A stretch of DNA of 50,030 nucleotides, taken from positions 1 through 50,030 of IMG/VR virus record IMGVR_UViG_3300030329_004005. The stretch is one strand, 5' to 3'. Shown here one piece after another: positions 13,299 to 28,031 of the stretch (position 1 is its first letter; each line of letters opens with the position of its first letter). The notes under the pieces were generated by a model, which saw nothing but the letters and a program-made list of their open reading frames with translations, made no database searches and was not told the DNA's origin. Position numbers and translations under genes: made by a program. This stretch comes from a virus (lineage: Duplodnaviria > Caudoviricetes).

Positions 13299-14783
13299 TT
13301 ACATTAATTTCCAGCTTTTTGGGGCATAATCGTAATAATCTTCCACATCTTCCTCTTCTTCTATGTCATGAACAGGTTTATATGCATTTTTGTTAGCATA
13401 GAAAAATCCATCTAATAAGTCATCATGTTTACCTCTAGGATACAATAATAGTTCATCTAATAGCGGTTGCATATTATCTCTTATATAAACTTTACCTTGT
13501 GCAAACAAAGGTTGCAAGCTTTCCAGCCTATAAGACTTAGATGTTCTTGGATTTTCTTTAATTTCTAACCCAGGAATAAATAATCCCAGTTCTTCTGACT
13601 TTTCTTTAATATATTGACGTAACATCTCCTGATATCCCACTGACTCAATTCTTGTTCTTGCACTATTGTATTCTACAAAATTATCTATAATAGCATCTGC
13701 CAATGCTAATGGAGTAGCCCGATTTCTATAATATGGAAGCACATATCTGTTGTTTTCAGCATCTATTGCTATATTAAACACAACAGAGAAGTCTGCCCCT
13801 CTTTTAGTGCTAGATGCTGGATCAACACCTGTAAAAATATTTACGGGTATTCTTTTATCTACTTTTTTTCCATTTATCTCTTTTAATACCATATATGGGT
13901 ATCCATAATCGTCTAAATCGTAATGTCCGTCATAATACTGAATATCTTCTTCTCTAAATAGATTTTCTTCATCACCTACAATTTGACATAGATATTCTCT
14001 ATAAAATACAGAAATACGATTAATACTTTCTAATTCTTCTTTTTTCTGAGCCAGTTTATCTATCGGCCATACTTCTGGCCATAAAGAAAGCTTTTCTTCC
14101 ATATCAGGTGCAAATGTTAAACTTTTCCACCCCTTCATATCCTTAAGTGTTTCTACTAAACAACGTTGGTGCTGCGGTGTACCAATAACACATACTCTTC
14201 CTTTGAGTGGATCCAAGGAAGGAACCCCAGATTGCAGCAACCAACGAAGGTTAGACTCCATTGCCTCTGCTGTCTTAGTATTGTTTTCATCTTCTGGATC
14301 ATCTAATATAATTAAAGTAGGACGTTGATTTCCATGTTTGATACCTCTAATCTGCTGTCCTGTACCCTTACATATGATAACTGAACCATCTTTTAACTCT
14401 ATTTCAGCATTAGACCACTTTCTTGCTGATTGCATTCCCCAGTATCCAAAAAAGTATCTGAACTCCTGGGAATAGTCTAATGTGTCTTTTATTGTCCCTA
14501 ACAACTTAGTTGCGTGTCCCTGTGTACGGGAAACTAGCACAATAACTTTTGGTCCTTTATCAAACATCAAATGAAATAAGGGATACACACCAGCTACGAT
14601 AGAAGACTTGGCATGTCCACGAGGTGCAATGATATTAATTTGACTTGAATCTTGATTTAACAGTTCTTTGGTAATTTCATAATGAAAGTTAGGAGAATTC
14701 TCACTAAACATATTAGGCATCACCATTCTGCCAAATAACAACATATCTTGTTGCATTTCTAGAAGTATCTTATCTTTATCCAT
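13299..14783 (-). CDS. terL: Terminase large subunit
   Basis: Walker A APRGHAKS, Walker B LIILDDPE, VIGTP motif, nuclease GVDPA and GKHDDLLD. Confidence 0.93.
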   Translation of the reverse strand: MDKDKILLEMQQDMLLFGRMVMPNMFSENSPNFHYEITKELLNQDSSQINIIAPRGHAKSSIVAGVYPLFHLMFDKGPKVIVLVSRTQGHATKLLGTIKDTLDYSQEFRYFFGYWGMQSARKWSNAEIELKDGSVIICKGTGQQIRGIKHGNQRPTLIILDDPEDENNTKTAEAMESNLRWLLQSGVPSLDPLKGRVCVIGTPQHQRCLVETLKDMKGWKSLTFAPDMEEKLSLWPEVWPIDKLAQKKEELESINRISVFYREYLCQIVGDEENLFREEDIQYYDGHYDLDDYGYPYMVLKEINGKKVDKRIPVNIFTGVDPASSTKRGADFSVVFNIAIDAENNRYVLPYYRNRATPLALADAIIDNFVEYNSARTRIESVGYQEMLRQYIKEKSEELGLFIPGLEIKENPRTSKSYRLESLQPLFAQGKVYIRDNMQPLLDELLLYPRGKHDDLLDGFFYANKNAYKPVHDIEEEEDVEDYYDYAPKSWKLM

Positions 14784-17986: not shown

Positions 17987-18006
17987 TAGGTATTGATTAA
18001 CCAAAG

Positions 18007-18220
18007 AAAGTGCAATTTAGTATAGTTATAAGGAATTAGCAGGATCATAGTGTATGGAAATACAGGTAGAATAGTAGAAACAACTCTAAAAGTCTACATT
18101 AATGTTAATTAAAATAGTTCCTTGTAATAGTGTATTTGCGAATTAAATTCACCAGAACATTGAAACATATTAGTATGGTTGGAATTCCCATAGGCATTGG
18201 AACTATACTAATTGCACTTT
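18007..18220 (+). ncRNA. Candidate structured RNA element C (about 214 nt)
   Basis: 20-bp closing stem with one bulge (aaagtgcaatttagtatagtt/aactatactaattgcacttt); inner stem ataaggaatta/tagttccttgt has G-U pairs on the + strand. Confidence 0.5.
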
Positions 18221-18249
18221 ACATTTTAAACTTATGAAAGTAGGTATAT

Positions 18250-18435
18250 ATGTTATATTATAATGATTATGTATATATTCCTAAACATAAACCAGAAATA
18301 GTTGAATTAATTATTAAGAGATTAGGCGGTAATAAGTCTAAATGGAATAAATACCCTGTTAATAGTCTTAAAAAACTACTTTGGAAATATGATAAAGGAT
18401 ATATAGTTAAGGAAAGGAATAGTAATGGATGTTAA
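18250..18435 (+). CDS. Hypothetical early protein
   Basis: ORF track, 61 aa, AGGT SD. Confidence 0.6.
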   Translation: MLYYNDYVYIPKHKPEIVELIIKRLGGNKSKWNKYPVNSLKKLLWKYDKGYIVKERNSNGC

Positions 18436-18667
18436 ATACTATACAGAAAGAATATTACAACTATTTTTAAGATTATCTTTTACAATGTCTTTTGTAGTTG
18501 TATTAATAGTTAAATCATTGTTTTATCATTCTGATAATTCAATGTATAGTGATGATTTTAATATTTGGTTAACAAATTATACAGTTGAATTAGTAGATAC
18601 AGCAATAATTTTAACTGCAATAACTATAATATTAAAATTAATTCAAAAGTTAATCAGTAAATATTAG
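18425..18667 (+). CDS. Small membrane protein (two predicted TM helices)
   Basis: Hydrophobic stretches LFLRLSFTMSFVVVLIVKSLF and LVDTAIILTAITIILKLI; GAAAGGA SD. Confidence 0.6.
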   Translation: MDVKYYTERILQLFLRLSFTMSFVVVLIVKSLFYHSDNSMYSDDFNIWLTNYTVELVDTAIILTAITIILKLIQKLISKY

Positions 18668-18699
18668 AGTAAATAATACCCTTCTATATTTACTTATAT

Positions 18700-18788
18700 A
18701 GTAATAAAGAATTAAGGATAATTGGTTAGGTTCCAACCACAATTAAGATAAATATATAATGTATTTATACCTTAATTCCTTTATTACT
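18700..18788 (+). ncRNA. Candidate structured RNA element D
   Basis: Bulged stem of about 19 bp (agtaataaagaattaaggata/taccttaattcctttattact) ending right before a GAAAGGA SD. Confidence 0.45.
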
Positions 18789-18805
18789 GAAAGGAATAAA
18801 TAATT

Positions 18806-18877
18806 ATGCCTCTATGTAGAATATGTAAGCAAAATCATACTACTAAATATCATAAAAAATATTTAGGTAGTAAATAA
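18806..18877 (+). CDS. 23-aa CxxC-H-H micropeptide
   Basis: MPLCRICKQNHTTKYHKKYLGSK; GAAAGGA SD; TAATG coupling to the next ORF. Confidence 0.5.
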   Translation: MPLCRICKQNHTTKYHKKYLGSK

Positions 18878-19050
18878 TGTTTAAAAATTGGATAGTTAAA
18901 CACATATTATATACACATAAAGATTTAAAGGAATGTTATGAATGTAAAAAACATTATATGTCCAGTTACATTCATAATAATTTATGTATATATTGTGAAC
19001 AAATTAATATAAGAATTGATAGTTTTATCAATGAAAGGAAATGGAAATGA
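18877..19050 (+). CDS. 57-aa CxxC...CxxC zinc-finger protein
   Basis: Hand translation MFKNWIVKHILYTHKDLKECYECKKHYMSSYIHNNLCIYCEQINIRIDSFINERKWK; coupled on both sides (TAATG, ATGA). Confidence 0.6.
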   Translation: MFKNWIVKHILYTHKDLKECYECKKHYMSSYIHNNLCIYCEQINIRIDSFINERKWK

Positions 19051-19601
19051 ATACTTACGACTTAAAAGGAAATACATTAATAAATGGAAATCAAATTCAT
19101 CTTGTAAAAGCACTTCAAAAATGGAATGATGAAATCTTGACAATAAGAGAAAAAGAATTTGAATGGCAAGATTATCAATTTTCACCTAAATTAACAATAG
19201 AACAAAAGAATGAAAGATATATATTAAAGGAATTAGGTTTCCAAGGATTATTAAATGATGATAATCTTGATATATATAGAATGATAATGAAATTGCCTTA
19301 TAATACAGAATTTACTATTACTAAAAATGATATAGATAGTATATGGACAAGACAATGGCATTATGATAATCAAATGTTAAGAGTAGAATTTAAAAAAGAT
19401 TTTAAAAATTTAAATTATATAACATTAGTAAATTCACAAGTTTTACTATTTATGCTTAAAAATCCTGAATGTGAATTACTTGTAAGGAAAAAGCATAAAT
19501 ATTTTCATTTGTTATCACGACAATATGAAAGTGAAATAGAAACAGAAAGGGAAAATATAGAAAGAGATAATTCTTCTTCTAATGAAATTTTACCTTTTTA
19601 A
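19047..19601 (+). CDS. Hypothetical early protein with an acidic tail ending NEILPF
   Basis: ORF track (19041 start); the ATGA overlap favours a start at 19047. Confidence 0.65.
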   Translation: MNTYDLKGNTLINGNQIHLVKALQKWNDEILTIREKEFEWQDYQFSPKLTIEQKNERYILKELGFQGLLNDDNLDIYRMIMKLPYNTEFTITKNDIDSIWTRQWHYDNQMLRVEFKKDFKNLNYITLVNSQVLLFMLKNPECELLVRKKHKYFHLLSRQYESEIETERENIERDNSSSNEILPF

Positions 19602-19606
19602 TATTA

Positions 19607-19912
19607 ATGGAAGGAATGATTATGGTAATAGATAGATATGATATAGGTTTAGAAAAGATTGAAAATGAAAATAAAGAAAAAGCATTAGCAAGATATTTGG
19701 CTAATGCTTTACTTAATGATAAAGAAATGCAAGAAACACATTTAGCATATTATATATTTCAATTATGGCAATATTCATATAAACAGTGTAATAGAGATAA
19801 AGAAACAATAGATAAATATAATTTAAAAGAATTTTATGCCAATTGTGTAAATAATAGATTGAATTCAACAAATAATACTACAAATGTAGTGAAGGGAAAA
19901 GAAAATGGCTGA
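19607..19912 (+). CDS. Hypothetical early protein
   Basis: ORF track, 101 aa; overlaps the Ubl start. Confidence 0.65.
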   Translation: MEGMIMVIDRYDIGLEKIENENKEKALARYLANALLNDKEMQETHLAYYIFQLWQYSYKQCNRDKETIDKYNLKEFYANCVNNRLNSTNNTTNVVKGKENG

Positions 19913-20132
19913 ACAGCATACTATAAGATTACTTAATGGAAGCGATACTTTTGAGAATACATTAGTTACATCAACAACTGTTGGTGCTTTAAGAACTGAA
20001 TTAGATATTCCAAATAGTGCTACTGTTAATGTTAATCAGGCAAGGGCTAATAACGATACTGAATTAGTTCCAAGTCAAGGTGCCGATTTTGCTGTTGTAT
20101 CAGTGGTATACAACAATAAAACAGGTGGTTAA
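19905..20132 (+). CDS. Ubiquitin-like (beta-grasp, ThiS/MoaD/Prok-Ub-like) protein with C-terminal GG
   Basis: 75 aa; TTVGALRTELDIP...TVNVN...DTEL...VVSVV beta-grasp pattern; ends NNKTGG-stop. Confidence 0.82.
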   Translation: MAEQHTIRLLNGSDTFENTLVTSTTVGALRTELDIPNSATVNVNQARANNDTELVPSQGADFAVVSVVYNNKTGG

Positions 20133-20143
20133 ATAATAATAAA

Positions 20144-20180
20144 TGTATTCAGGTAAGGTTAATTGCCTTACCTGAATATG
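20144..20180 (+). promoter_or_regulatory. Strong hairpin between the Ubl and E2-like genes
   Basis: gtattcaggtaagg/ccttacctgaatat, about 14 bp, no U-tract, directly before the AAAGGA SD. Confidence 0.6.
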
Positions 20181-20192
20181 AAAGGAAAAGAT

Positions 20193-22145
20193 ATGTCTAA
20201 TCATAGTGTAAATTGGAATGAAAGTAAATGGAAAATAATACCTTTTGAAGAAAATGCTATAAATCCTTCTGAATTTATAGATAGTGTATTATTAGGTCCA
20301 CAAAAAAGTGTTTTAGAAAAAATAAAAATCTTTAATGATAACTACTATTACACAGCACAAATACCAAATGGTATTAATCCATTAGGTATTACTAATAAAT
20401 TTAGATTAAAATCAAAAAGTTCTGATACTATAAAAGCAATAATTCATTACCATTGTTTAGGTTGGAAAAAAGGAACTAATATAACTAATTTATTTAGACA
20501 ACCTTATGGACATTATTTTAGAAACATAGGTGGACAATATAATGAAATTGCAAGAGAATTATCAAATTTAAGATATGAAAATGCAACATTTCAGGATAAT
20601 ACAGAAATAACACGAAGAATAATTAAAGAAATTCAAAATAATATACAAGATAGAATAAGTAAAGCAAATGAAAAAGAAAATGTAGAAGTATTTTGTTTTT
20701 ATGAAACAAATGATAGTTTAACTAATATGAATTATAGAAATGAATATACTAATGATACATTTTTAACAATATATATGAAATTTTCAAATCAAAAAATGGA
20801 TATTTGGCAATCAGAGAATTTCATAGAAACTATCGATATACCAGGTAATATATGGATTAAAACAAAATTTAATTTAAGAAAATATATTACACTTCTTTTA
20901 GATACAGCACATAACTTTGATAAGCATACCATGAATGAAACATATCTTCACAGTGAAGAACATCTAAAAGAAGAATTATCATTTGATAAATATACTTATG
21001 ATAGACTACTTTCTTATAATAAATGTATTATGTATAAAAAAGAAGTAGTTAAACAATTAAATATAGAAACAAAAAATGGAAAAACAACTAAAAGTATATT
21101 AGAATATGATGATTGTTTAAAATATCTATTTGAATTTAATAAAATATATAAATTAACAACTAATAATAGTAGATATAGAATATCTTCAAGATGTATTAAT
21201 ATGTTAGGTTTATATGATGATAAATATTCACATATGTTTAATAATTATTCAAGAACATTCCCATTCATATCCAGAACTAATAGTTATAGTTCAAGTCAAG
21301 ATCATAAATTCGCTATTAAAGATAAAGTTTTTATGAATGATGAACTAACAAAAAAATTGTCTTGTATTAGTGATTTAAATACTAATAGAATGCAAAGTGG
21401 TTTTGGACATTTATGTGGCGGTAGTGTGCAATCTTCAATGGTTAATTCATTATCAGATATGGATTTTGAAAGTTTCTTTGTTCATTTTGAAAATTGGAAA
21501 ACATTCAATATTGGACATACAGGGCCATTAAATTCATTAGAAAATATGTTCTTTGGAATACCAGAAAAAAGAACTGATAAATTTAAGGAATTAATTACAC
21601 AAGATTTAAAATATAATGCCCAATCAGTTTGGCATTCTTGTGTATTTGATATGAATTTAGATAATTTCCTTAATATACAATCAGATGAACATATAATAAT
21701 AGATTGTCCAGTTATTAATAGTGTTAATGAATATGATGATGATGATAATCTTATTAATAAAGAATATGAAATTCGTCAATTATCTTTAAAGGAATCATTA
21801 GAAAGTGGTGGTAATCCTGATATCTATGAATTTGATGATTATGTCAATCAAGATATAAAAATTAAAGATAGTAATGGACAAATTAGATATGAACCATATG
21901 AACCATATTTTATGGAAATCTGTAAAAGATTTCTTGCAAAATATGATAATATGGATAGTGATTTTAGAAATAGTTGTCCTTTGTTTGAAAATATAGAACA
22001 AGTATTTGGATATATGAATTCAAATAAATTTAAAGAAAGACAACTTTCAATAGAATCAAAAGATGATGAAAAAGAAAAGGAAACAAGTCGTAGTAGAGAA
22101 CAAATGGAAATGGAAGAAATACAACGAATTGTTAGATCTTTATAA
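20193..22145 (+). CDS. Large E2-like (ubiquitin-conjugating-fold) protein, about 650 aa
   Basis: FPFIS ... GFGHLCGG ... FENWKTFN...TGPLN resembles the HP[N/H]I...G.[IV]C[LM]G core of prokaryotic E2s (Cys codon at 21414-21416). It sits between Ubl and JAB. Likely ATG at 20193. Confidence 0.55.
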   Translation: MSNHSVNWNESKWKIIPFEENAINPSEFIDSVLLGPQKSVLEKIKIFNDNYYYTAQIPNGINPLGITNKFRLKSKSSDTIKAIIHYHCLGWKKGTNITNLFRQPYGHYFRNIGGQYNEIARELSNLRYENATFQDNTEITRRIIKEIQNNIQDRISKANEKENVEVFCFYETNDSLTNMNYRNEYTNDTFLTIYMKFSNQKMDIWQSENFIETIDIPGNIWIKTKFNLRKYITLLLDTAHNFDKHTMNETYLHSEEHLKEELSFDKYTYDRLLSYNKCIMYKKEVVKQLNIETKNGKTTKSILEYDDCLKYLFEFNKIYKLTTNNSRYRISSRCINMLGLYDDKYSHMFNNYSRTFPFISRTNSYSSSQDHKFAIKDKVFMNDELTKKLSCISDLNTNRMQSGFGHLCGGSVQSSMVNSLSDMDFESFFVHFENWKTFNIGHTGPLNSLENMFFGIPEKRTDKFKELITQDLKYNAQSVWHSCVFDMNLDNFLNIQSDEHIIIDCPVINSVNEYDDDDNLINKEYEIRQLSLKESLESGGNPDIYEFDDYVNQDIKIKDSNGQIRYEPYEPYFMEICKRFLAKYDNMDSDFRNSCPLFENIEQVFGYMNSNKFKERQLSIESKDDEKEKETSRSREQMEMEEIQRIVRSL

Positions 22146-23104
22146 TGTTAACTAAAATAGTAGAGTGGCTTTATAAGTCATTCTACTATTTATTAAAAAA
22201 AGGAAATGATATGCAAGAAACAGAATTTTATATTGATGAAAAAGATTGGAATAAAATCCAACAATATTGTCAATATGCATATGATAAACATAAATCAGAA
22301 ATAGGCGGTATGTTATTAGCAGAATTAGATAAAGATAATAACTATCGTTTATTTGAACCTACAATATTAAAACAAGAAATATCAATGGCAAATACTGTAT
22401 TAGATAAAGATGAATTAGCAAATTACTATTCGAAAATAGGTATGAAATATGATAATGTAAGATTTGTATGGTGGCATAGTCATCACACAATGTCTGCATT
22501 TTGGTCTGGAACAGATTTAACTGCAATTGATGAAATGGCTAATGGAACTATGTCATTATCATTAGTAGTAAATTTAAAAGAAGAATATAAATTTAGAGTA
22601 AATATATGGAAACCTATACAAACATTTGAAGACATTGAATTAAAAATTATTAGAAAAGATAAGAAAATTAATAAAAGTGTTAAAAAAGAAGTTGATAAAC
22701 TATGTAATACAGAAAAACCTGAAAAGTCTTGGAATAATACAAAACAAACTTCATTAGCATTTCCAGGTTATAGATATAAACCAGAAAAAGAAATATCATT
22801 AAATAAATCATATTATCAACAAATAGTTTCTAAAACAGAAACTATTCATCAGGATTATGAATTTAGTATGAAATCAAAAGAACAATATAAAGAATACAAA
22901 AATGAAGTAGTCAAAACAAATAAGATATTATCTGATAATAATGTAATGTATAGAATATTACTATTAAATAAAAAACAATTAGATGATACTGTTGATTGGC
23001 TACCAGTTGAAAGTGTAATTTATAATAAAAATACAAATTGTTCATTTGATGATATTATGATAGAATATCAATATGATATTAGACAAGAAAGTTGGGAATC
23101 ATGA
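22145..23104 (+). CDS. JAB/JAMM (MPN+) metalloprotease
   Basis: SEIGG ... WWHSHHTMSAFWSGTD is a complete E-xn-HxH-x7-S-x2-D motif; alternative start at 22211. Confidence 0.9.
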   Translation: MLTKIVEWLYKSFYYLLKKGNDMQETEFYIDEKDWNKIQQYCQYAYDKHKSEIGGMLLAELDKDNNYRLFEPTILKQEISMANTVLDKDELANYYSKIGMKYDNVRFVWWHSHHTMSAFWSGTDLTAIDEMANGTMSLSLVVNLKEEYKFRVNIWKPIQTFEDIELKIIRKDKKINKSVKKEVDKLCNTEKPEKSWNNTKQTSLAFPGYRYKPEKEISLNKSYYQQIVSKTETIHQDYEFSMKSKEQYKEYKNEVVKTNKILSDNNVMYRILLLNKKQLDDTVDWLPVESVIYNKNTNCSFDDIMIEYQYDIRQESWES

Positions 23105-23763
23105 TAGATAGTAGATACAGTGGAATAGTTAGTAATTTCAATGAATATACTTATCACATTTTAGGTTGTGGTGCTATTGGTAGTAGCACTGCAACTCAAT
23201 TGGTTCGTATGGGTGCAAATAAATTGCATTTATATGATTTTGATAAAGTATCAATTGAAAATGTAGGTGTATCAATGTATGATACAGGTTCTGTAAGATT
23301 AGAAAAAACCAAAGCATTATCAATAATATTAAAACAAATAAATCCAGAAATAGAAGTTCAAATACATAATGAAAAATTTAAACACTATTACCCTGAATTA
23401 AAAAGAAATGTTGTTGTATTAGGTTTTGATAATATGGAATATAGACTACAAGCAGTTAAGGAAGTATGTAAATTCAAAAATTGTGATTTCTTAATAGATG
23501 GTAGAATGGGAGCAGAACAGTTCCAAATGTATACATTCATTAATCCAACTGTTAAGAAATATGAAAAGTGTTGGTATAGTGATGATAAAGGTGATCCTGA
23601 ACCTTGCAATGCCAAAGCGACAAGTTATTGTAGCAATATGGCAGGAAGTTTTATATGCAATAGCATAAGAAAACTCATTACTAAACAACCTTACAATCCT
23701 ACTGTATTTTTTAGTTATCCTGATAATACAATAGAAACACCAAAAGGACTATCATTTCCTTAA
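23101..23763 (+). CDS. E1-like ThiF/MoeB adenylyltransferase
   Basis: ILGCGAIGS, YDFDKVSIEN, VLGFDNMEYR, LIDGRMG, candidate catalytic Cys in EPCNAKA; ATGA overlap with JAB. Confidence 0.9.
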   Translation: MIDSRYSGIVSNFNEYTYHILGCGAIGSSTATQLVRMGANKLHLYDFDKVSIENVGVSMYDTGSVRLEKTKALSIILKQINPEIEVQIHNEKFKHYYPELKRNVVVLGFDNMEYRLQAVKEVCKFKNCDFLIDGRMGAEQFQMYTFINPTVKKYEKCWYSDDKGDPEPCNAKATSYCSNMAGSFICNSIRKLITKQPYNPTVFFSYPDNTIETPKGLSFP

Positions 23764-23771
23764 CAGTCCAT

Positions 23772-23856
23772 AGAATTAAGTTGGCGGATATATGAATACT
23801 AAATGCAGGTTTGAAATACTAACCACGATTTTGACAATATTCGTCTTCTTAATTCT
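23772..23856 (+). ncRNA. Candidate structured RNA element E
   Basis: agaattaagttggcggatat/atattcgtcttcttaattct stem with + strand G-U pairs. Confidence 0.45.
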
Positions 23857-23869
23857 TAAAATATTAAAG

Positions 23870-24002
23870 AAAGCATATGAATACCATCCACTTACGAACA
23901 ATCTTGAATAGGAATAATGTGGATCAAGCATTGAACAATAATAAACGAATATTTTCCATATATTAATATATTAATATGTTCAATTTGGTATTTATATGCT
24001 TT
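23870..24002 (+). ncRNA. Candidate structured RNA element F
   Basis: 17-bp closing stem aaagcatatgaatacca/tggtatttatatgcttt (one G-U pair) followed by a T run. Confidence 0.5.
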
Positions 24003-24017
24003 TTTTATTAAATAATT

Positions 24018-24150
24018 TATATTCCCTTCATATAAAGCAGTTAAAAGGACTGCGTGGTAACCAATCCACCTTACTCTTTTAATAAATGTTATATGATATG
24101 CTTTAAAAAGTTGACTTGGTTGGCACTATATTAACTTTGAAGGGAATATA
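24018..24150 (+). ncRNA. Candidate structured RNA element G
   Basis: Perfect 13-bp closing stem tatattcccttca/tgaagggaatata. Confidence 0.45.
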
Positions 24151-24159
24151 ATAAATCCC

Positions 24160-24188
24160 TTGCTTTTCAATATAAAAACCCTTAACTT
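24160..24188 (+). promoter_or_regulatory. Sigma70-type promoter for the replication module
   Basis: TTGCTT (24160-24165), 17-nt spacer, TAACTT (24183-24188), upstream of an AAGGAG SD. Confidence 0.55.
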
Positions 24189-24242
24189 ACTTTTGCTTTA
24201 CTATAAAGTGAAGGTAAATTAAATAAGAAAAGGAGAAATTGA

Positions 24243-24836
24243 ATGGCAATTAAAATCCATGGAAAAGACTATGTTTTAGTAAACGAAAGACTGATGTCTT
24301 TTCTTTCAGAAAATCCAAAAGCGACAATAGAAACTCAATTATATGCCTGTAATCAGATTATTGATACTTCAACAGGAGATCCATGTAATGAGTATATTGT
24401 TTTAGCAAAAATATATCCTTTACCGCAAGACGAACCTGATATTTACTATACAGGATTGGCTGCTGAAAGGGATAACAATGGTTTCATTAATAAAACTTCT
24501 GCATTAGAAAATGCTGAAACATCTGCTGTAGGTAGAGCATTAGCATTCGCAGGATATGGAAGTGATGAAAGCATTGCAAGTGCTGAAGAAGTTGTAGTAG
24601 CACAAAATAAACAGAAAACATTTAACCCTACTGTTACTTCTTTAGATAAATTAGATCGTAGTATGAATGAATGTAAGTCCTTATTATTGTTAGACGATGA
24701 TTTCGTTAAACGATATAGGGCTAAAAGAACAGCTGGAATGACAAAAGTTCAGGTTCAAGAAACTCAATTATACTTCGATAAAATCATAAGTTCAAATAAA
24801 AAAGAAGGGGGAACGAATGACAAAAAATCCAAATGA
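24243..24836 (+). CDS. ssDNA annealing protein (Rad52/Sak-like)
   Basis: IHGKDYVLVNERL and TSALENAETSAVGRALAFAGYG...IASAEEV motifs; first gene of the replication module. Confidence 0.7.
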   Translation: MAIKIHGKDYVLVNERLMSFLSENPKATIETQLYACNQIIDTSTGDPCNEYIVLAKIYPLPQDEPDIYYTGLAAERDNNGFINKTSALENAETSAVGRALAFAGYGSDESIASAEEVVVAQNKQKTFNPTVTSLDKLDRSMNECKSLLLLDDDFVKRYRAKRTAGMTKVQVQETQLYFDKIISSNKKEGGTNDKKSK

Positions 24837-25140
24837 TCTTACAAAACAAATAACAGATCATCATCGTTTATATGAAGCATGTGATATGATTTATACAAAT
24901 AAACTTGATCATACAATAGTTAATTTAGGCGATAAAGGAACATTCTTTATGATTAGAGCATTAGAAACTGGTAATGAAAATAACAGGCTTGTTCATAAAG
25001 ATACAACTTCACAATTAATAGATGATGCAATAGATGCTGAAAACTTTAGTCGTGAAGAATATTATAGAGAAAGAAACCAAGATCATTCAATGGACAATAT
25101 GCCTGTTGGTGATCCTACAATGGAAGGGGAGTTGACATAA
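24817..25140 (+). CDS. Hypothetical protein
   Basis: ORF track, 107 aa, coupled. Confidence 0.7.
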   Translation: MTKNPNDLTKQITDHHRLYEACDMIYTNKLDHTIVNLGDKGTFFMIRALETGNENNRLVHKDTTSQLIDDAIDAENFSREEYYRERNQDHSMDNMPVGDPTMEGELT

Positions 25141-25661
25141 TGGCAATTACAGGAACAAAAATAGAAAATAATGGATCATCTAATAAAGGATACTTTGTAA
25201 ATAAATGTAGAATAGTAGGTGCAGAACAATTAGAATCTCAATATAGTGATACAAGTATAAAATTAACTTTAGAAGATGATAGAAATCAATTTCAATATAC
25301 ATGTTTTATAAATCAAAACTATGAAAAAGATACTAATGGAGTAGTAACAGGATTAAAATTTCCTGATAATTTAAATACATTATATCTTGCAGCAAAAAAA
25401 GATCTTAATGTTTCTGATGTTGGAGAAGCTAATTTAGCAGAATTGGCAAATGCACAAGTTGCTTGTATTAGTTATGAATCAACAGGGAAATATAAAAGAG
25501 CAATATGGAGCACAATGTCATCATGGGAAGATACCGATAAACTTGAAGCAAAGTTTGCTGAACAAGTAGAAAAAGGATATCCTTCTAACTTTAAGAAACC
25601 TGAATCACCAAAAGTTATGGTTGGTAATGAAGCAGTTAAAGTTGATGATTTACCATTCTAA
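25140..25661 (+). CDS. Putative ssDNA-binding protein
   Basis: Beta-rich body, C-terminal DDLPF tail, placed between annealing protein and primase-helicase. Confidence 0.6.
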   Translation: MAITGTKIENNGSSNKGYFVNKCRIVGAEQLESQYSDTSIKLTLEDDRNQFQYTCFINQNYEKDTNGVVTGLKFPDNLNTLYLAAKKDLNVSDVGEANLAELANAQVACISYESTGKYKRAIWSTMSSWEDTDKLEAKFAEQVEKGYPSNFKKPESPKVMVGNEAVKVDDLPF

Positions 25662-25921
25662 TGAAAGCAAAAGAGATTATCTTATTGTGGATAGAAAATA
25701 AATATCGTTCTACTAATAAATACTTTTTTAGTTTTGATTTTGAGAATGAAATTGCAAACTATGGTCGATTAGCACATCAAAAAGTACATACACCAAGTAC
25801 TTATTCAAGAGCATTTAGAGCAATTCGTTCAAGTAATGATTTAACTAAAAGAGGTTTAGAATTAGAAGAAATTGAACACACTAATAAAAAGAGTAAAGGA
25901 TGGAGAATCAAGAAAATATAA
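25661..25921 (+). CDS. Hypothetical protein, possible winged HTH
   Basis: 86 aa, HTPSTYSRAFRAIR helix followed by a beta hairpin. Confidence 0.55.
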   Translation: MKAKEIILLWIENKYRSTNKYFFSFDFENEIANYGRLAHQKVHTPSTYSRAFRAIRSSNDLTKRGLELEEIEHTNKKSKGWRIKKI

Positions 25922-27690
25922 TAGAAATAGTCCCAGGATTAATTACTAATCGTGGTAAAACTATGAATTTAGAAAATTACGATCAGTATATGAAGGACAA
26001 TTCATGGAAAGATGAATTATATAGATCCTATTATTCATTCGATAAAACATTCGAATCCCATGTTAAAGAGAATGGATCAGTCAAAGGATTTAAAGGTCTT
26101 ACATATATTGATCGTATTATCATAGATTTAGATAAGGGAGATATTGATGATAATTCTTTCAATGGATATGTATTAAATTGCATATCTGACATACTTGAAA
26201 AAGGAGTTATGGGGGAAGACATTAATATTTGGTTCTCTGGCACTGGATATCACATTGAATTATTAAATGTTTTTGGTTTACAGCCAAGTAAGGAATTGAA
26301 TGAAAAATTGAAATGGACAATGAAAAAACATTTTGATTTTGGAGATTCCATTTACGATAAAGCAAGAATAATTCGTTCCAATTGGAGTTTAAATAGAAAA
26401 ACAAATCTATTTAAAATCTGGATTCCTTTGCAGTTGTTGCATGAATTAACTTTTGAACAAGTTAAGAAAGCAGCAGAGTCTAAAGATAACTACATGGAGT
26501 TAGTTGATAAACATGAAAACTTTTTCGAAAGTTTGAATGATTCCAGTTATGTAGAACAACCTTATCTACAATCTATGATAGTAGCATCACCTACTGTTGT
26601 TACAAATGGCAATAGTCATAAAGCAGACGTTTCAACAGTTGTATCATGTATGCAACATGTATTCAATGAAGGGCCTGTAAAAGGCTCAAGAAACATGAAG
26701 GTAATGCGTATGTCCAGTTCTTACAAAAGAGCTGGCATTCCTTTCCTTGTAACATTAAATGGTATGTTAACATGGTCAAAAGATAGTATATCTGACGATG
26801 AAATAACAAGAACAGTAACTAATATATATGAAGAGAATTACCAATATGGTTGTTCAGATCATATCATGGCAGAATACTGTGATCCAAAATGTGTATACTT
26901 TAAAAGAAAAGATTATACACAAGAGATTAAGAATATTACACAATTAGAACAAAGTTTAAGAGATTATGTTAAAAATGATCTAACATCTAAATCAATTGAC
27001 TTATCTAGTATTTGGAATGTTCCTCAATACCATTTAAAACCTGGAGAATTAATAATTTTCTCAGGAGATACAGGGTTAGGAAAGTCTGCATTCGTGCAGA
27101 ATATAATAACACATTGTAAAAAAGATACATTGTTTCTATCATTAGAAATGAAAGAACAGTTAACATTTAGAAGATTTATTCAGATATTATTGAAGAAAAA
27201 TGAAAAATATGTTAGTAACTTATTTAAAACAGATCCTGATATAACATTTGAAGAAGATCTTAAGCATGTTAATATTATGTCTATAGCACCAAGAGTAGAA
27301 GCTATCAAAAAGGTAGTTGCAGAAATGGAACCTACTATATTGGTAGTAGATACTACTGATGAATTACAAGTTGATTTTGTAAGAGGAGAAATTGAAAAAC
27401 AAAATATCATTATAGATAATTTGAAACAAATTGCTCAAAAGAACAATATAGTTATTATTGCTATACATCATATGAATAAGATGAGTGCAGTAAATAATAC
27501 TATTAATGTTCATTCTCTTAAAGGATCATCTAATATAGTTCAAAAAGCAGACAAAGTTCTTGTAATCAAAGGAAATCGAAATGAAACAGTAAGAACAATA
27601 TGTTCTGAAAAATCAAGAGATGAAGCACGATTTGAAATGACTGCTAACTTTGATGGAGAAACAATGACTTTTTCACAAATTACATTTTAA
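25900..27690 (+). CDS. Bifunctional AEP-type primase / SF4 (DnaB-like) helicase
   Basis: IIIDLD and FSGTGYH (AEP motifs I and II), Cys cluster YGCSD...YCDPKC, Walker A GDTGLGKS, LSLEM, LVVD, LKGSSNIVQKADKV. Confidence 0.85.
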   Translation: MENQENIIEIVPGLITNRGKTMNLENYDQYMKDNSWKDELYRSYYSFDKTFESHVKENGSVKGFKGLTYIDRIIIDLDKGDIDDNSFNGYVLNCISDILEKGVMGEDINIWFSGTGYHIELLNVFGLQPSKELNEKLKWTMKKHFDFGDSIYDKARIIRSNWSLNRKTNLFKIWIPLQLLHELTFEQVKKAAESKDNYMELVDKHENFFESLNDSSYVEQPYLQSMIVASPTVVTNGNSHKADVSTVVSCMQHVFNEGPVKGSRNMKVMRMSSSYKRAGIPFLVTLNGMLTWSKDSISDDEITRTVTNIYEENYQYGCSDHIMAEYCDPKCVYFKRKDYTQEIKNITQLEQSLRDYVKNDLTSKSIDLSSIWNVPQYHLKPGELIIFSGDTGLGKSAFVQNIITHCKKDTLFLSLEMKEQLTFRRFIQILLKKNEKYVSNLFKTDPDITFEEDLKHVNIMSIAPRVEAIKKVVAEMEPTILVVDTTDELQVDFVRGEIEKQNIIIDNLKQIAQKNNIVIIAIHHMNKMSAVNNTINVHSLKGSSNIVQKADKVLVIKGNRNETVRTICSEKSRDEARFEMTANFDGETMTFSQITF

Positions 27691-27698
27691 GGATATAT

Positions 27699-28031
27699 AT
27701 GGCACATAAAAATAAAATACGTGGAAATAACCTTGAAAGAGAATGTGTTAATTTAGCAAAAGAAGAAGGGCTCTCTGCAAAGAGAGCCTATGCTTCTGAT
27801 GGAAGATCTTTAGGTAAATCTGAAGTTGTTGATGTCATTGTTGAAAATGTATGCATTCAAGCAAAAAGAAGAAAAAAAATTGCACAATGGTTATATCCTG
27901 ATTTCCATGGAGATGACGTAGACATGGTAGTAACAAGAATGGATAGAAAAGAACCTCTTGCTATACTACCATATAAGGAATGGCTTAAATTAATTAAACT
28001 GAAAGGGGAAGTAACGAATGAAGATCAGTAA
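27699..28031 (+). CDS. Holliday junction resolvase (Hjc-like PD-(D/E)XK)
   Basis: RGNNLERE...VDV...IQAK pattern. Confidence 0.75.
   Translation: MAHKNKIRGNNLERECVNLAKEEGLSAKRAYASDGRSLGKSEVVDVIVENVCIQAKRRKKIAQWLYPDFHGDDVDMVVTRMDRKEPLAILPYKEWLKLIKLKGEVTNEDQ

What the first reader, a model, noticed from the sequence alone, without database searches (positions are those of the whole stretch)
19905..23763. Phage-encoded complete ubiquitin-like conjugation cassette (Ubl - E2-like - JAB - E1) in the early region
Seen: four adjacent co-oriented genes, the last three coupled by stop/start overlaps. They encode a 75-aa beta-grasp-like protein ending GG, a protein of about 650 aa with an E2-like G-H-L-C-G core, a JAMM protease with an intact HSH-x7-S-x2-D motif, and a ThiF/E1 with a GxGxxG loop and a candidate catalytic Cys. 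Established: E1/E2/JAB/Ubl sets run bacterial anti-phage conjugation (Bil systems, CBASS Cap2/Cap3) and occur in PRTRC-type cassettes. Inference: here the phage carries its own protein-tagging machine among host-takeover genes. It could modify host or defence proteins, hijack or strip host Ubl/cGAS conjugates, or exclude rival phages. No sulfur-transfer partner (ThiG, MoaE, cysteine synthase, rhodanese) is in the window.
Basis: partly seen in the sequence, partly recalled or inferred. Interest (0 to 1): 0.93.

Follow-up and report, generated by a model that had tools for sequence, protein, structure and literature searches.

The report
Phage ubiquitin-like tagging cassette, novel partner
A marine phage, and hundreds of its uncultured relatives, carry a four-gene set that looks like a self-contained ubiquitin-like protein-tagging machine whose largest part belongs to a protein family nobody has described.

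Summary
Four co-oriented genes lie at 19905-23763. They encode a 75-aa protein ending K-T-G-G, a 650-aa protein, an intact JAMM protease and a 220-aa ThiF-type E1.

The set is a conserved module. The E1 has 318 relatives in IMG/VR, of which the best 80 loci were examined. The large gene was present in 53 of 53 loci with enough upstream DNA. The JAB was found in 68 of 71 by script and in the other 3 by eye. The small protein was found in 46 of 52 by HMM, with divergent K-x-G-G ORFs in 4 more.

A predicted complex puts the small protein's G-G tail on that Cys. The score was 0.62 and the best of 3 controls 0.00.

Best reading: a phage-encoded ubiquitin-like activation and transfer pathway with a new, very divergent E2-like carrier. 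A sulfur-carrier role is not excluded. Targets and biological role are unknown.

The parts
19905..20132 (+). Ubl: 75-aa ThiS/MoaD-like protein ending N-K-T-G-G (nt 20115-20129). No C-terminal tail in this copy.
   Evidence: ORF. In alignment A4 (15 sequences) K72, G74 and G75 are invariant, and tails of 0-14 aa follow G-G. 6 of 15 members match Pfam ThiS, best 5e-6; the window copy itself does not match at E<=1. In 48 relatives, 17 end at G-G and 31 carry tails of 1-31 aa.
20145..20179 (+). 15-bp stem-loop between the Ubl and the large gene. Possible intra-operon RNA element that sets the ratio of Ubl to enzymes (inference).
   Evidence: MFE -22.4 kcal/mol, z -6.26, and 0 of 200 shuffles fold as well. 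No T-run follows on the + strand. Strong but unrelated hairpins occupy the same intergenic spot in many of the 20 related loci folded.
20193..22145 (+). Large Cys protein ('BIG'), 650 aa (alternative TTG start at 20163). Proposed Ubl acceptor or carrier. Layout: N-terminal helical bundle (residues ~34-132), a core (residues ~143-455) with a beta-meander plus helices and inserts, and a C-terminal helical domain (residues ~470-610).
   Evidence: No family in Pfam, PHROGs, NCBIfam or PADLOC. 130 relatives found by exhaustive HMMER. AlphaFold2 model with 120 sequences: pLDDT 78.4, pTM 0.77. No PDB Foldseek match at E<=0.001. 6 unnamed viral models in BFVD at 6e-16 to 3e-13.
21258..21272 (+). F-P-F-I-S, residues 356-360. 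The family consensus is H-P-Y-I-S.
   Evidence: Column counts in A2: P357 77 of 79, H356 58 of 79 (F in 13, including the window), Y/F358 78 of 79. Residues 357-358 touch the Ubl in the predicted complex.
21414..21416 (+). Codon of Cys408, the only invariant Cys of the family and the proposed thioester site.
   Evidence: C408 79 of 79 and G410 79 of 79. Residues 408-415 contact Ubl residues 68-75, and G410 pairs with Ubl G74 at an expected error of 2.1 A.
22145..23104 (+). JAMM/JAB metalloprotease, 319 aa (a start at M23, nt 22211, is also possible), with a C-terminal extension of about 170 aa of unknown function. Proposed to trim Ubl tails and/or remove conjugates.
   Evidence: E-I-G-G at nt 22298-22309 and H-S-H-x7-S-x2-D at nt 22475-22516. 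Pfam Prok-JAB 2.5e-4, 21.4 bits, below the cut-off of 25. PADLOC JAB 1.1e-8. The motif is intact in 72 of 73 relatives by regex; the one miss has E-V-T-G plus the full H-x-H-x7-S-x2-D.
23101..23763 (+). Minimal E1-like adenylyltransferase, 220 aa (alternative TTG start at 23092). Features: G-C-G-A-I-G-S (nt 23164-23184), D-F-D-K-V (nt 23236-23250), D-G-R-M-G (nt 23497-23511), and E-P-C...Y-C (nt 23599-23637).
   Evidence: Pfam ThiF 8.8e-22. The nearest solved structure is UBA5, 7e-11 over residues 10-95. Both Cys are present in 80 of 80 relatives. No rhodanese domain.

Best explanation
This is a phage-encoded, self-contained pathway that activates and transfers a ubiquitin-like protein.

Proposed steps:
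1. The 75-aa ThiS/MoaD-like protein is the modifier.
2. In relatives whose copy carries a tail after G-G, the JAMM protease exposes the G-G end. It may also remove the modifier from conjugates later.
3. The 220-aa ThiF-type E1, probably a homodimer like other minimal E1s, adenylates the terminal Gly. It may hold it on one of its two invariant Cys.
4. The modifier passes to the invariant Cys408 of the 650-aa protein.
5. That protein acts as a very divergent E2-like carrier. Its extra N- and C-terminal helical domains could choose the target, making it an E2/E3 hybrid.
6. The modifier ends up on a protein target that is still unknown.

Shown here: the four genes, their motifs, their strict co-occurrence, and the absence of sulfur-pathway partners.
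Predicted only: the Ubl tail docking on Cys408, and the UBC-like core.
Inferred: the thioester, the final conjugation, the target and the biological role.
For: - E1: Pfam ThiF 77.8 bits against a cut-off of 28.1. The best solved relative is the ubiquitin-fold-modifier E1 UBA5, at 7e-11.
- JAB: the full JAMM motif is present.
- Ubl: K72, G74 and G75 are invariant. 31 of 48 relatives carry tails of 1-31 aa after G-G, as in Ubl precursors. 6 of 15 members hit Pfam ThiS.
- Co-occurrence in the 80 best of 318 IMG/VR relatives of the E1: the large gene in 53 of 53 loci with at least 3 kb upstream. JAB in 68 of 71 by script, and the other 3 (L047, L048, L088) by eye. Ubl in 46 of 52 by HMM, plus divergent K-x-G-G ORFs seen by eye in L035, L049, L052 and L061.
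- The large protein has a single invariant Cys (79 of 79) preceded by I/V, and an upstream (H/F)-P-(Y/F)-(I/V) motif. It has no invariant His, which argues against a Cys-His protease.
- Predicted complex of the large protein with the Ubl: score 0.62 (runs 0.63, 0.56, 0.62), best of 3 controls 0.00. The mark was reached by 58 of 80 solved complexes and 2 of 110 mismatched pairs. These counts hold only roughly, because my own alignments were used. The runs agree in at least 85% of contacts and the partner pLDDT is at least 83. The interface joins Ubl residues 66 and 68-75 to residues 357-358 and 408-446.
- The gene order equals Bil's Ubl-E2-DUB-E1. BilB also has a long insert before its catalytic Cys (PMC10557695 passages).
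- No sulfur-pathway partner is present in the record.
Against: - No sequence method links the large protein to any E2. Pfam at E<=0.1 gives nothing for the window copy. None of 79 family members hits an E2 family at E<=0.01. A six-frame UQ_con search of the record at E<=1 gives 0 hits. hhalign against a 4-sequence Prok-E2_A alignment gives probability 0.1%. The family profile finds nothing relevant among PDB sequences.
- No residue-level superposition was available, so I could not check that Cys408 falls on the E2 catalytic Cys.
- The window's own copy has Phe where the family consensus has the His of H-P-x.
- Docking of a tail onto a Cys would look the same for a persulfide or sulfur-acceptor enzyme.
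- The Ubl family is ThiS-like, and the E1's best NCBIfam names are ThiF and MoeB, though all fall below their cut-offs.
- In the alignment to UBA5, the E1 has Val where UBA5 has the Arg of its N-x-N-R motif. That this Arg helps bind ATP is recalled, not tested.
- No conjugate, thioester or expression has been observed.
Confidence: 0.55

Rival explanations
1. Sulfur-carrier pathway. The E1 adenylates the ThiS-like protein, a host persulfide donor turns it into a thiocarboxylate, and the large protein is a new sulfur-accepting or sulfur-inserting enzyme that uses Cys408. It could, for example, make a thio-modified nucleotide, cofactor or DNA/RNA base during replication. The JAB only trims the carrier's tail.
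For: - 6 of 15 Ubl relatives hit Pfam ThiS. The nearest PDB sequence to the Ubl profile is a ThiS, though at E 0.11.
- The E1's top NCBIfam names are ThiF and MoeB.
- JAB, ThiS-like carrier and E1 trios in sulfur assimilation clusters are described in PMC1779556 (passages).
- A carrier tail inserted into a partner's active site is also what the predicted complex shows.
- The cassette sits beside replication genes here and in crAss-like and Fipvunavirus phages.
Against: - No rhodanese, cysteine desulfurase, PP-loop ATPase, ThiG, MoaE or PALP enzyme is found in the record.
- The NCBIfam ThiF/MoeB scores are far below their cut-offs, for example 74.1 against 159.
- The large protein resembles no known sulfur-transfer enzyme by sequence or in the fold lists. 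Absence from those lists is not proof.
- The weak structural signal points to UBC/RWD folds.
- PMC1779556 notes that E1s in the E2/JAB operon classes never carry a rhodanese domain (section 14). That is the situation here.
Confidence: 0.2
2. E2-independent tagging, as in archaeal SAMP/UbaA systems. The E1 alone conjugates the Ubl. The large protein is not a carrier enzyme but the main target, an adaptor, or a regulator that binds the Ubl non-covalently. The JAB reverses the tag.
For: - The predicted complex supports binding only, not chemistry.
- The large protein has no sequence-level E2 signature.
- Systems made of an E1, a ThiS/MoaD-like modifier and a JAMM protease but no E2 are known in archaea. 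Titles and abstracts were seen in the listing: PMC4895103 and PMC4443979. The mechanism is recalled.
Against: - A lone Cys is conserved in 79 of 79 members, a G-x context and the P357 motif lie at the predicted contact with the Ubl's terminal G-G, and there is no invariant Lys among the near-invariant columns. This fits a catalytic site better than a target site.
- Strict co-occurrence and translational coupling with the enzymes.
Confidence: 0.15
3. The large protein is a thiol peptidase or transglutaminase-like enzyme that processes or deconjugates the Ubl. On this reading the cassette has two proteases and no carrier.
For: The Ubl C-terminal tail is predicted to lie on an invariant Cys. His356 is nearby in 58 of 79 members.
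Against: - No His is invariant. The window's own copy has Phe at 356, and no other His column exceeds 17 of 79.
- The JAB already supplies the peptidase.
- No peptidase family was hit.
Confidence: 0.05

Closest known systems
Bacterial Bil (BilABCD) anti-phage ubiquitination systems
   Same: The gene order is the same: Ubl, then the E2 position, then the JAB deubiquitinase, then E1. The JAB pre-processes Ubl tails to expose the terminal Gly. BilB has a long variable insert before its catalytic Cys (PMC10557695 passages).
   Different: Here the system is encoded by a lytic-looking phage rather than a bacterial defence locus. [quoted passage not shown] The protein in the E2 position is 650 aa, carries two extra helical domains, and has no detectable sequence similarity to E2s.
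CBASS type II Cap2 (E1-E2 fusion) / Cap3 (JAB)
   Same: PADLOC E1-E2 (Cap2) profiles match the E1, best 5.2e-15. PADLOC JAB profiles match the JAB at 1.1e-8.
   Different: The matches cover only about residues 5-105 of the E1. There is no E2 fusion and no CD-NTase (SMODS 0 hits). A separate Ubl is present, whereas in CBASS the cyclase C-terminus is what gets conjugated (abstract of PMC10097602, seen in the listing).
crAss-like (crAss001 gp79-gp76, bajarodcaudo virus 1) and Fipvunavirus (Fpv2 gp58-gp53) phage gene sets annotated 'thiamine biosynthesis protein ThiF'
   Same: The position is the same, in the replication module next to primase and UDG. The order is also the same: a protein with a possible N-terminal beta-grasp ending K-S-G-(G/A), then a 420-444-aa unknown, then JAB, then E1. 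HMMs built from this family hit their E1s at 2.7e-35 to 4.7e-32 and their JABs at 1.9e-10 to 6.6e-8.
   Different: The middle protein shows no detectable relation to the large protein here (hhalign probability 0.15%). The Ubl link is weak (hhalign probability 3.3%, E 0.013) and otherwise rests on my reading by eye. Their Ubl-like domain is fused to a C-terminal extension of 130-200 aa.
UBA5-UFC1 (UFM1) and other minimal-E1 pathways
   Same: UBA5 is the closest solved sequence to the E1 (7e-11, residues 10-95). Like it, the phage E1 is a short single-domain enzyme.
   Different: The match covers only the nucleotide-binding part. The Arg of UBA5's N-x-N-R motif aligns to Val. UFC1 was not among the fold matches listed.
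ThiS-ThiF / MoaD-MoeB and JAMM-assisted sulfur-carrier systems
   Same: A ThiS-like carrier ending G-G, a ThiF-family E1, and a JAB that could trim the carrier (PMC1779556 passages).
   Different: No downstream sulfur enzyme or rhodanese is present. NCBIfam equivalog cut-offs are not reached. A 650-aa Cys protein is invariably present, and those pathways have no such protein.
PRTRC cassettes of plasmids and ICEs
   Same: A mobile-element cassette with a ThiF-family protein and a JAB-like protein.
   Different: NCBIfam PRTRC_A scores 18 bits against a cut-off of 101.8. PRTRC_ThiF scores 16.1 against 144.75. No other PRTRC protein matched.
Lambdoid/T1 tail-assembly Ubl (TAPI) with JAB (TAPK)
   Same: A phage-encoded beta-grasp protein with a conserved C-terminal Gly next to a JAB peptidase (PMC1779556 passages).
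   Different: Those sit in tail-assembly modules and have no E1. Here an E1 and a Cys protein are present, and the set lies in the replication region.

Membership tests
E1-like adenylyltransferases (Pfam ThiF, PF00899) | Profile match above the curated cut-off | tested here: met
   77.8 bits against a cut-off of 28.1, E 8.8e-22, covering residues 18-212. A six-frame search of the record gave 77.2 bits.
E1-like adenylyltransferases (Pfam ThiF, PF00899) | G-x-G-x-x-G nucleotide loop and acidic Mg site | tested here: met
   G-C-G-A-I-G-S, D-x-D and D-G-R-M-G are each conserved in 80 of 80 relatives. Their catalytic meaning is inferred.
E1-like adenylyltransferases (Pfam ThiF, PF00899) | Catalytic Cys that forms a thioester with the Ubl | not testable with these tools
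   Two Cys (residues 169 and 177 of the 220-aa form) are conserved in 80 of 80 relatives. Which of them acts, if either, is unknown.
JAMM/MPN+ (JAB) metalloproteases | Glu ... H-x-H-x7-S-x2-D zinc site | tested here: met
   E-I-G-G at residues 52-55 and H-S-H-x7-S-x2-D at residues 111-124. 72 of 73 relatives pass the regex, and the one miss has E-V-T-G plus the full motif.
JAMM/MPN+ (JAB) metalloproteases | Pfam Prok-JAB gathering score | tested here: not met
   21.4 bits against a cut-off of 25 (E 2.5e-4). PADLOC JAB profiles do match, at 1.1e-8.
ThiS/MoaD-type beta-grasp Ubl | C-terminal G-G at the end of the domain | tested here: met
   The protein ends K-T-G-G. G74 and G75 are invariant in 15 of 15.
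ThiS/MoaD-type beta-grasp Ubl | Profile match to Pfam ThiS (PF02597) | tested here: inconclusive
   The window copy has no hit at E<=1. 6 of 15 family members hit ThiS, best 5e-6. The family profile against PDB gives ThiS at E 0.11 and SAMP2 at 1.1.
UBC/E2 superfamily | Sequence-profile match to an E2 family (UQ_con, Prok-E2_A to E) | tested here: not met
   0 families at E<=0.1 for the window copy. 0 of 79 members hit an E2 family at E<=0.01. UQ_con six-frame search gave 0 hits at E<=1. hhalign against Prok-E2_A gave probability 0.1%.
UBC/E2 superfamily | UBC fold (helix, four-strand meander, Cys loop, helices) | tested here: inconclusive
UBC/E2 superfamily | Invariant catalytic Cys with an upstream H-P-N-type motif | tested here: inconclusive
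   C408 79 of 79. I/V at 407 in 58 of 79. H-P-(Y/F)-(I/V) lies about 50 residues upstream (P357 77 of 79, H356 58 of 79), and the window copy has F-P-F. The spacing is far longer than in classical E2s (recalled).
UBC/E2 superfamily | Binds the Ubl with its C-terminus at the Cys | tested here: inconclusive
   Prediction only. Score 0.62 against a best control of 0.00 (3 controls). Ubl residues 68-75 lie against residues 357-358 and 408-446.
Bil (BilABCD) | Gene order Ubl-E2-DUB-E1 | tested here: met
Bil (BilABCD) | BilD-type E1 with inactive plus active adenylation domains and a mobile Cys domain | tested here: not met
   The E1 is 220-223 aa with one ThiF domain spanning residues 18-212. The BilD architecture is as described in PMC10557695.
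CBASS type II (Cap2/Cap3) | E1-E2 fusion protein with a CD-NTase in the locus | tested here: not met
   PADLOC E1-E2 profiles match only within E1 residues 5-105, against profile positions ~170-460. SMODS gave 0 hits in the record.
PRTRC | NCBIfam PRTRC_A and PRTRC_ThiF above their cut-offs | tested here: not met
   18 bits against 101.8, and 16.1 bits against 144.75.
ThiS-ThiF / MoaD-MoeB sulfur-carrier pathways | Downstream sulfur enzyme (ThiG, MoaE, PALP) or sulfur donor (rhodanese, desulfurase) in the same genome | tested here: not met
   0 hits for each of PF05690, PF02391, PF00291, PF00581, PF00266 and PF01171 in the record. Host enzymes could still serve.

The most novel reading that the evidence does not exclude
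A protein family specific to phages, roughly 500-700 aa with one invariant Cys, is a previously unrecognised E2/E3-hybrid carrier. Together with a minimal E1, a JAMM protease and a ThiS-like modifier, it forms a viral ubiquitin-like conjugation pathway. The pathway is fixed in hundreds of marine phage genomes and has positional counterparts in crAss-like gut phages. The phage uses it during replication to tag host or phage proteins.
Probability: 0.4. Interest if true: 0.88.

Novelty: new variant of a known kind. Interest (0 to 1): 0.78.

Why it matters
Ubiquitin-like conjugation in prokaryotes has so far been worked out as a bacterial weapon against phages (Bil, CBASS Cap2/Cap3, Bub).

Here the same logic appears on the phage side, as a conserved core module rather than an occasional passenger:
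- The E1 has 318 relatives in IMG/VR.
- One pattern scan of 185,579 species genomes confirmed only 3 relatives. One of these is a 3.9-kb contig 99% identical to the window.

If the large protein is a new carrier enzyme, it widens the known range of E2-like catalysts. It would also give a testable handle on what phages tag during infection.

The distant but syntenic gene sets in crAss-like phages are annotated only as 'thiamine biosynthesis protein ThiF'. That suggests the question reaches some of the most abundant phages of the human gut.

My six full-text searches found no paper that describes such a phage cassette. Subscription journals and supplementary tables were not searchable.

Tried and rejected
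- Cultured-phage searches. Megablast of 19000-27700 and tblastn of the large protein against 50,697 phage records gave no match. The terminase is only about 25% identical to any cultured phage.
- Word-index protein search for the large protein. It found only the window's own copy and one 39%-identical relative among 4372 candidates. Exhaustive HMMER was needed to find 130.
- The search for related loci with the large protein alone found nothing. I used the E1 alignment instead.
- The first structure prediction, from a 2-sequence alignment, was useless at pLDDT 32.1.
- Foldseek against PDB gave 0 matches at E<=0.001.
- ESM Atlas, searched twice, gave no usable feature hit. Its own model of this protein has pLDDT 0.31, so its structural rows are meaningless.
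- hhalign of the large family gave probability 0.15% against the crAss/Fpv middle proteins and 0.1% against Prok-E2_A. The shared 'H-x-H ... C-x-G' look that I saw by eye is therefore not supported.
- hhalign of the Ubl family against the N-termini of crAss/Fpv gp79-like proteins gave probability 3.3%, E 0.013, against 0.91 for a reversed control. This is suggestive only.
- Host assignment failed. One contig 99% identical to the E1 sits in a MAG labelled Nisaea. It is 3.9 kb long and is probably a binned phage fragment.
- Expression. No RNA holder was listed among the sequencing runs. I did not lay reads.
- The stretch was held at half or more of its words by 8 marine-metagenome runs from 3 studies. 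6 of these were flagged as possible sources of this DNA.
- Supplementary files of the Bil and Bub papers were not opened. They may list phage-borne operons.
- A Cys-His peptidase reading was rejected because no His is conserved.

Full report
WHAT IS THERE

The window is one complete IMG/VR virus record of 50,030 bases. CheckV rates it 100% complete and its ends are classed as linear. It carries a terminase large subunit, a portal and a major head protein on the minus strand.

A plus-strand block runs from about 16.7 to 29.3 kb. It starts with small orphan ORFs and ends with replication genes, including a primase-helicase at 25900-27690. No tRNA was found.

The four ORFs of the finding are at the stated coordinates.

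- The first is 75 aa and ends N-K-T-G-G.
- The second is listed from a TTG at 20163 (660 aa). That TTG lies inside a 15-bp hairpin at 20145-20179 (-22.4 kcal/mol, z -6.26). The database copy begins at the ATG at 20193, after an A/G-rich stretch. I therefore use 650 aa and its numbering.
- The second ORF's stop and the JAB start overlap as TAATG.
- The JAB stop and an E1 ATG at 23101 overlap as ATGA.

THE THREE RECOGNISABLE PARTS

The last ORF is a ThiF-family E1.
- Pfam gives 77.8 bits against a cut-off of 28.1.
- NCBIfam names such as ThiF, MoeB and a 6A-MBL cap2_3 protein all fall far below their cut-offs.
- PADLOC Cap2 profiles match only its first ~100 residues.
- The nearest solved sequence is human UBA5, at 7e-11 over residues 10-95.
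- Its G-C-G-A-I-G-S loop, D-x-D, D-G-R-M-G and two Cys are conserved in 80 of 80 relatives.
- It has no rhodanese domain.

The third ORF has the complete JAMM signature, E...H-S-H-x7-S-x2-D.
- It scores just under Pfam's Prok-JAB cut-off (21.4 against 25).
- It matches PADLOC JAB profiles at 1.1e-8.
- It carries an unexplained C-terminal half of about 170 aa.

The small protein has no family hit of its own.
- 6 of its 15 aligned relatives match Pfam ThiS, best 5e-6.
- K72, G74 and G75 are invariant.
- Among 48 relatives, 17 end exactly at G-G and 31 carry 1-31 further residues. That is the pattern of Ubl precursors that need trimming.

THE LARGE PROTEIN

It matches nothing in Pfam, PHROGs (one 0.0019 hit to an unannotated family), NCBIfam or PADLOC. 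It matches nothing among cultured phages.

- A word-index search found only one relative.
- An exhaustive HMMER search found 130 representatives at E<=0.001, of which 36 were at <=1e-10.
- None of 79 full-length members hits an E2 or any other informative Pfam family.
- The family profile finds nothing relevant among PDB sequences.

Column counts on the 79-member alignment show one invariant Cys, C408, in the context (I/V)-C-x-G-(N/D). They also show:
- P357 in 77 of 79, within (H/F)-P-(Y/F)-(I/V)-S;
- W435 and P445 in 78 of 79 each;
- no conserved His.

FOLD

With two sequences AlphaFold2 failed (pLDDT 32.1). With 120 sequences it gave pLDDT 78.4 and pTM 0.77.

- Foldseek found no PDB match at E<=0.001. 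It found six unnamed viral models in BFVD, at 6e-16 to 3e-13.

The secondary structure fits a UBC-like order with a helical insert of about 110 residues. It runs: helix 137-158, five strands 164-227, the P357 motif, C408, then helices 410-452.

PREDICTED CONTACT WITH THE UBL

The one complex job went to the open question: the large protein (alignment A3) with the Ubl (alignment A4).

- The verdict was 'supports binding'. The score was 0.62 (runs 0.63, 0.56, 0.62) against 0.00 for the best of 3 controls.
- The mark was reached by 58 of 80 solved complexes and 2 of 110 mismatched pairs in the tool's calibration. These counts hold only roughly, because my own alignments were used.
- The runs agree in at least 85% of contacts, and the partner pLDDT is at least 83.
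- The interface joins Ubl residues 66 and 68-75 to residues 357-358 and 408-446. Ubl G74 lies against G410.

The two most conserved motifs of an otherwise unknown family are thus predicted to hold the reactive end of the Ubl. This is a model, not a measurement. A sulfur-accepting enzyme would look the same.

CONSERVATION AND SPREAD

The single E1 protein found 9 related loci in IMG/VR.
- Six of them (L002-L007) have the full four-gene order.
- L008 holds JAB and E1 only, on a short stretch.
- L009 has the large gene cut by the contig end.
- L010 is a distant variant whose small protein does not end in G-G.

An E1 alignment then found 318 relatives, of which the 80 best loci were kept. They include the same contigs as L002-L007. 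A script that ran HMMs on the upstream ORFs gave these counts:
- the large gene in 53 of 53 loci with at least 3 kb upstream;
- JAB in 68 of 71 loci with at least 1 kb upstream;
- Ubl in 46 of 52 loci with at least 3.4 kb upstream;
- all three in 43 of 52.

By eye, the three JAB misses (L047, L048, L088) do have a JAB with the full motif. My position filter had dropped them. Four of the six Ubl misses (L035, L049, L052, L061) have longer ORFs ending K-R-G-G or V-K-G-G, with or without a short tail. L054 was not inspected, and L072 showed no candidate.

One pattern scan of one genome for each of 185,579 prokaryote species confirmed only 3 relatives. One of these is a 3.9-kb contig 99% identical to the window. 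The stretch is held by marine metagenome runs.

DISTANT COUSINS IN CULTURED PHAGES

tblastn of the E1 hit 78 phage records at under 60% identity. They were mostly crAss-like Bacteroides phages and Flavobacterium psychrophilum phages, where the gene is annotated 'thiamine biosynthesis protein ThiF'.

In crAss001, bajarodcaudo virus 1 and Fpv2 the E1 is preceded by a JAB (my HMM: 1.9e-10 to 6.6e-8). Before that come a 420-444-aa unknown and a 225-289-aa protein. All lie next to primase and UDG genes.

The N-terminus of that last protein reads like the Ubl and ends K-S-G-(G/A) near residue 85-92. Profile comparison gives only weak backing for the Ubl link (probability 3.3%, E 0.013). It gives none for the middle protein (probability 0.15%). 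The parallel is therefore positional, not shown homology.

WHAT IT MOST LIKELY DOES

I commit to a Ubl activation-and-transfer pathway.
1. The JAB trims the Ubl where needed.
2. The E1 adenylates the terminal Gly.
3. The Ubl is handed to Cys408 of the large protein.
4. The large protein acts as a divergent E2-like carrier, and its extra helical domains may pick the target.

I give about 0.85 to the cassette being some Ubl-activation system. I give 0.55 to the thioester-carrier and protein-conjugation version.

The sulfur-carrier rival (0.2) keeps weight because the Ubl and E1 are of the ThiS/ThiF type. Against it: there is no sulfur partner in the genome, the weak fold signal points to UBC/RWD folds, and E1s of the E2/JAB operon classes characteristically lack rhodanese (PMC1779556, section 14).

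An E2-independent, SAMP-like system with the large protein as target or adaptor gets 0.15. A thiol peptidase gets 0.05.

One unexplained detail remains. The E1 has Val where UBA5 has the Arg of its N-x-N-R motif.

COMPARISON WITH KNOWN SYSTEMS

It works most like Bil. The gene order is the same, the JAB pre-processes the Ubl, and there is an insert before the carrier Cys (PMC10557695 passages).

It is not a member of the known families:
- Not Bil. The E1 has a single domain, and the carrier is four times larger and unrelated in sequence.
- Not CBASS Cap2/Cap3. There is no fusion and no CD-NTase.
- Not PRTRC.
- Not a thiamine or molybdopterin pathway.

NOVELTY

Six full-text searches found no description of a phage-encoded cassette of this kind, or of the crAss-like 'ThiF' neighbourhood.

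Papers seen:
- PMC1779556: passages and section 14.
- PMC10557695: passages.
- PMC11601596: outline and abstract.
- All others: search listings only.

Supplements were not opened, and subscription journals are not covered. I rate this a new variant of a known kind. The pathway logic is known. The phage ownership as a fixed core module, and the carrier family, are new.

Noticed in passing
window 20145-20179: A perfect 15-bp stem-loop lies between the Ubl gene and the large gene (z -6.26). Many related loci have equally strong but unrelated hairpins at the same spot. This would fit a need for more Ubl than enzymes.
   Followed up: partly
L012 (Flavobacterium phage Fpv2) 3668-5960: The JAB gene appears split. 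gp56 carries the N-terminal part, and gp54 starts at the H-S-H motif. An oppositely oriented 'endonuclease' gene (gp55) lies between them. This looks like a homing-endonuclease or intron-type interruption.
   Followed up: no
window 29346-40712 (-) and 1-6396 (-): There are two giant ORFs. One is 3788 aa, and its only Pfam hit is DUF7831 at residues 3127-3221. The other is at least 2132 aa and runs off the left end of the record. The record is therefore cut inside a gene, although it is rated 100% complete and linear.
   Followed up: partly
window 18001-24000: G+C falls to 23-26% across the small-ORF region and the cassette, against 30-38% in the structural modules. GC skew changes sign at about 16 kb and 30 kb, together with the strand switches.
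   Followed up: no
L094 (genome contigs): A 3,859-base contig 99% identical to the window's E1 region is binned in a MAG labelled uncultured Nisaea sp. It is most likely a phage fragment caught by binning, not evidence of the host.
   Followed up: no
window 24243-25921: Three genes just downstream (197, 173 and 86 aa) are 85-90% identical to those of L002, while the cassette's large protein is only 39% identical. The large protein evolves much faster than its neighbours.
   Followed up: no
L010 4031-7618: A distant variant of the cassette. Its small protein does not end in G-G (it ends E-N-A after a longer tail), and its E1 lacks the E-P-C Cys.
   Followed up: no
window 13299-14783 (-): The terminase large subunit is at most about 25% identical to that of any cultured phage among 50,697 records. 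The phage therefore belongs to a lineage with no cultured member.
   Followed up: partly
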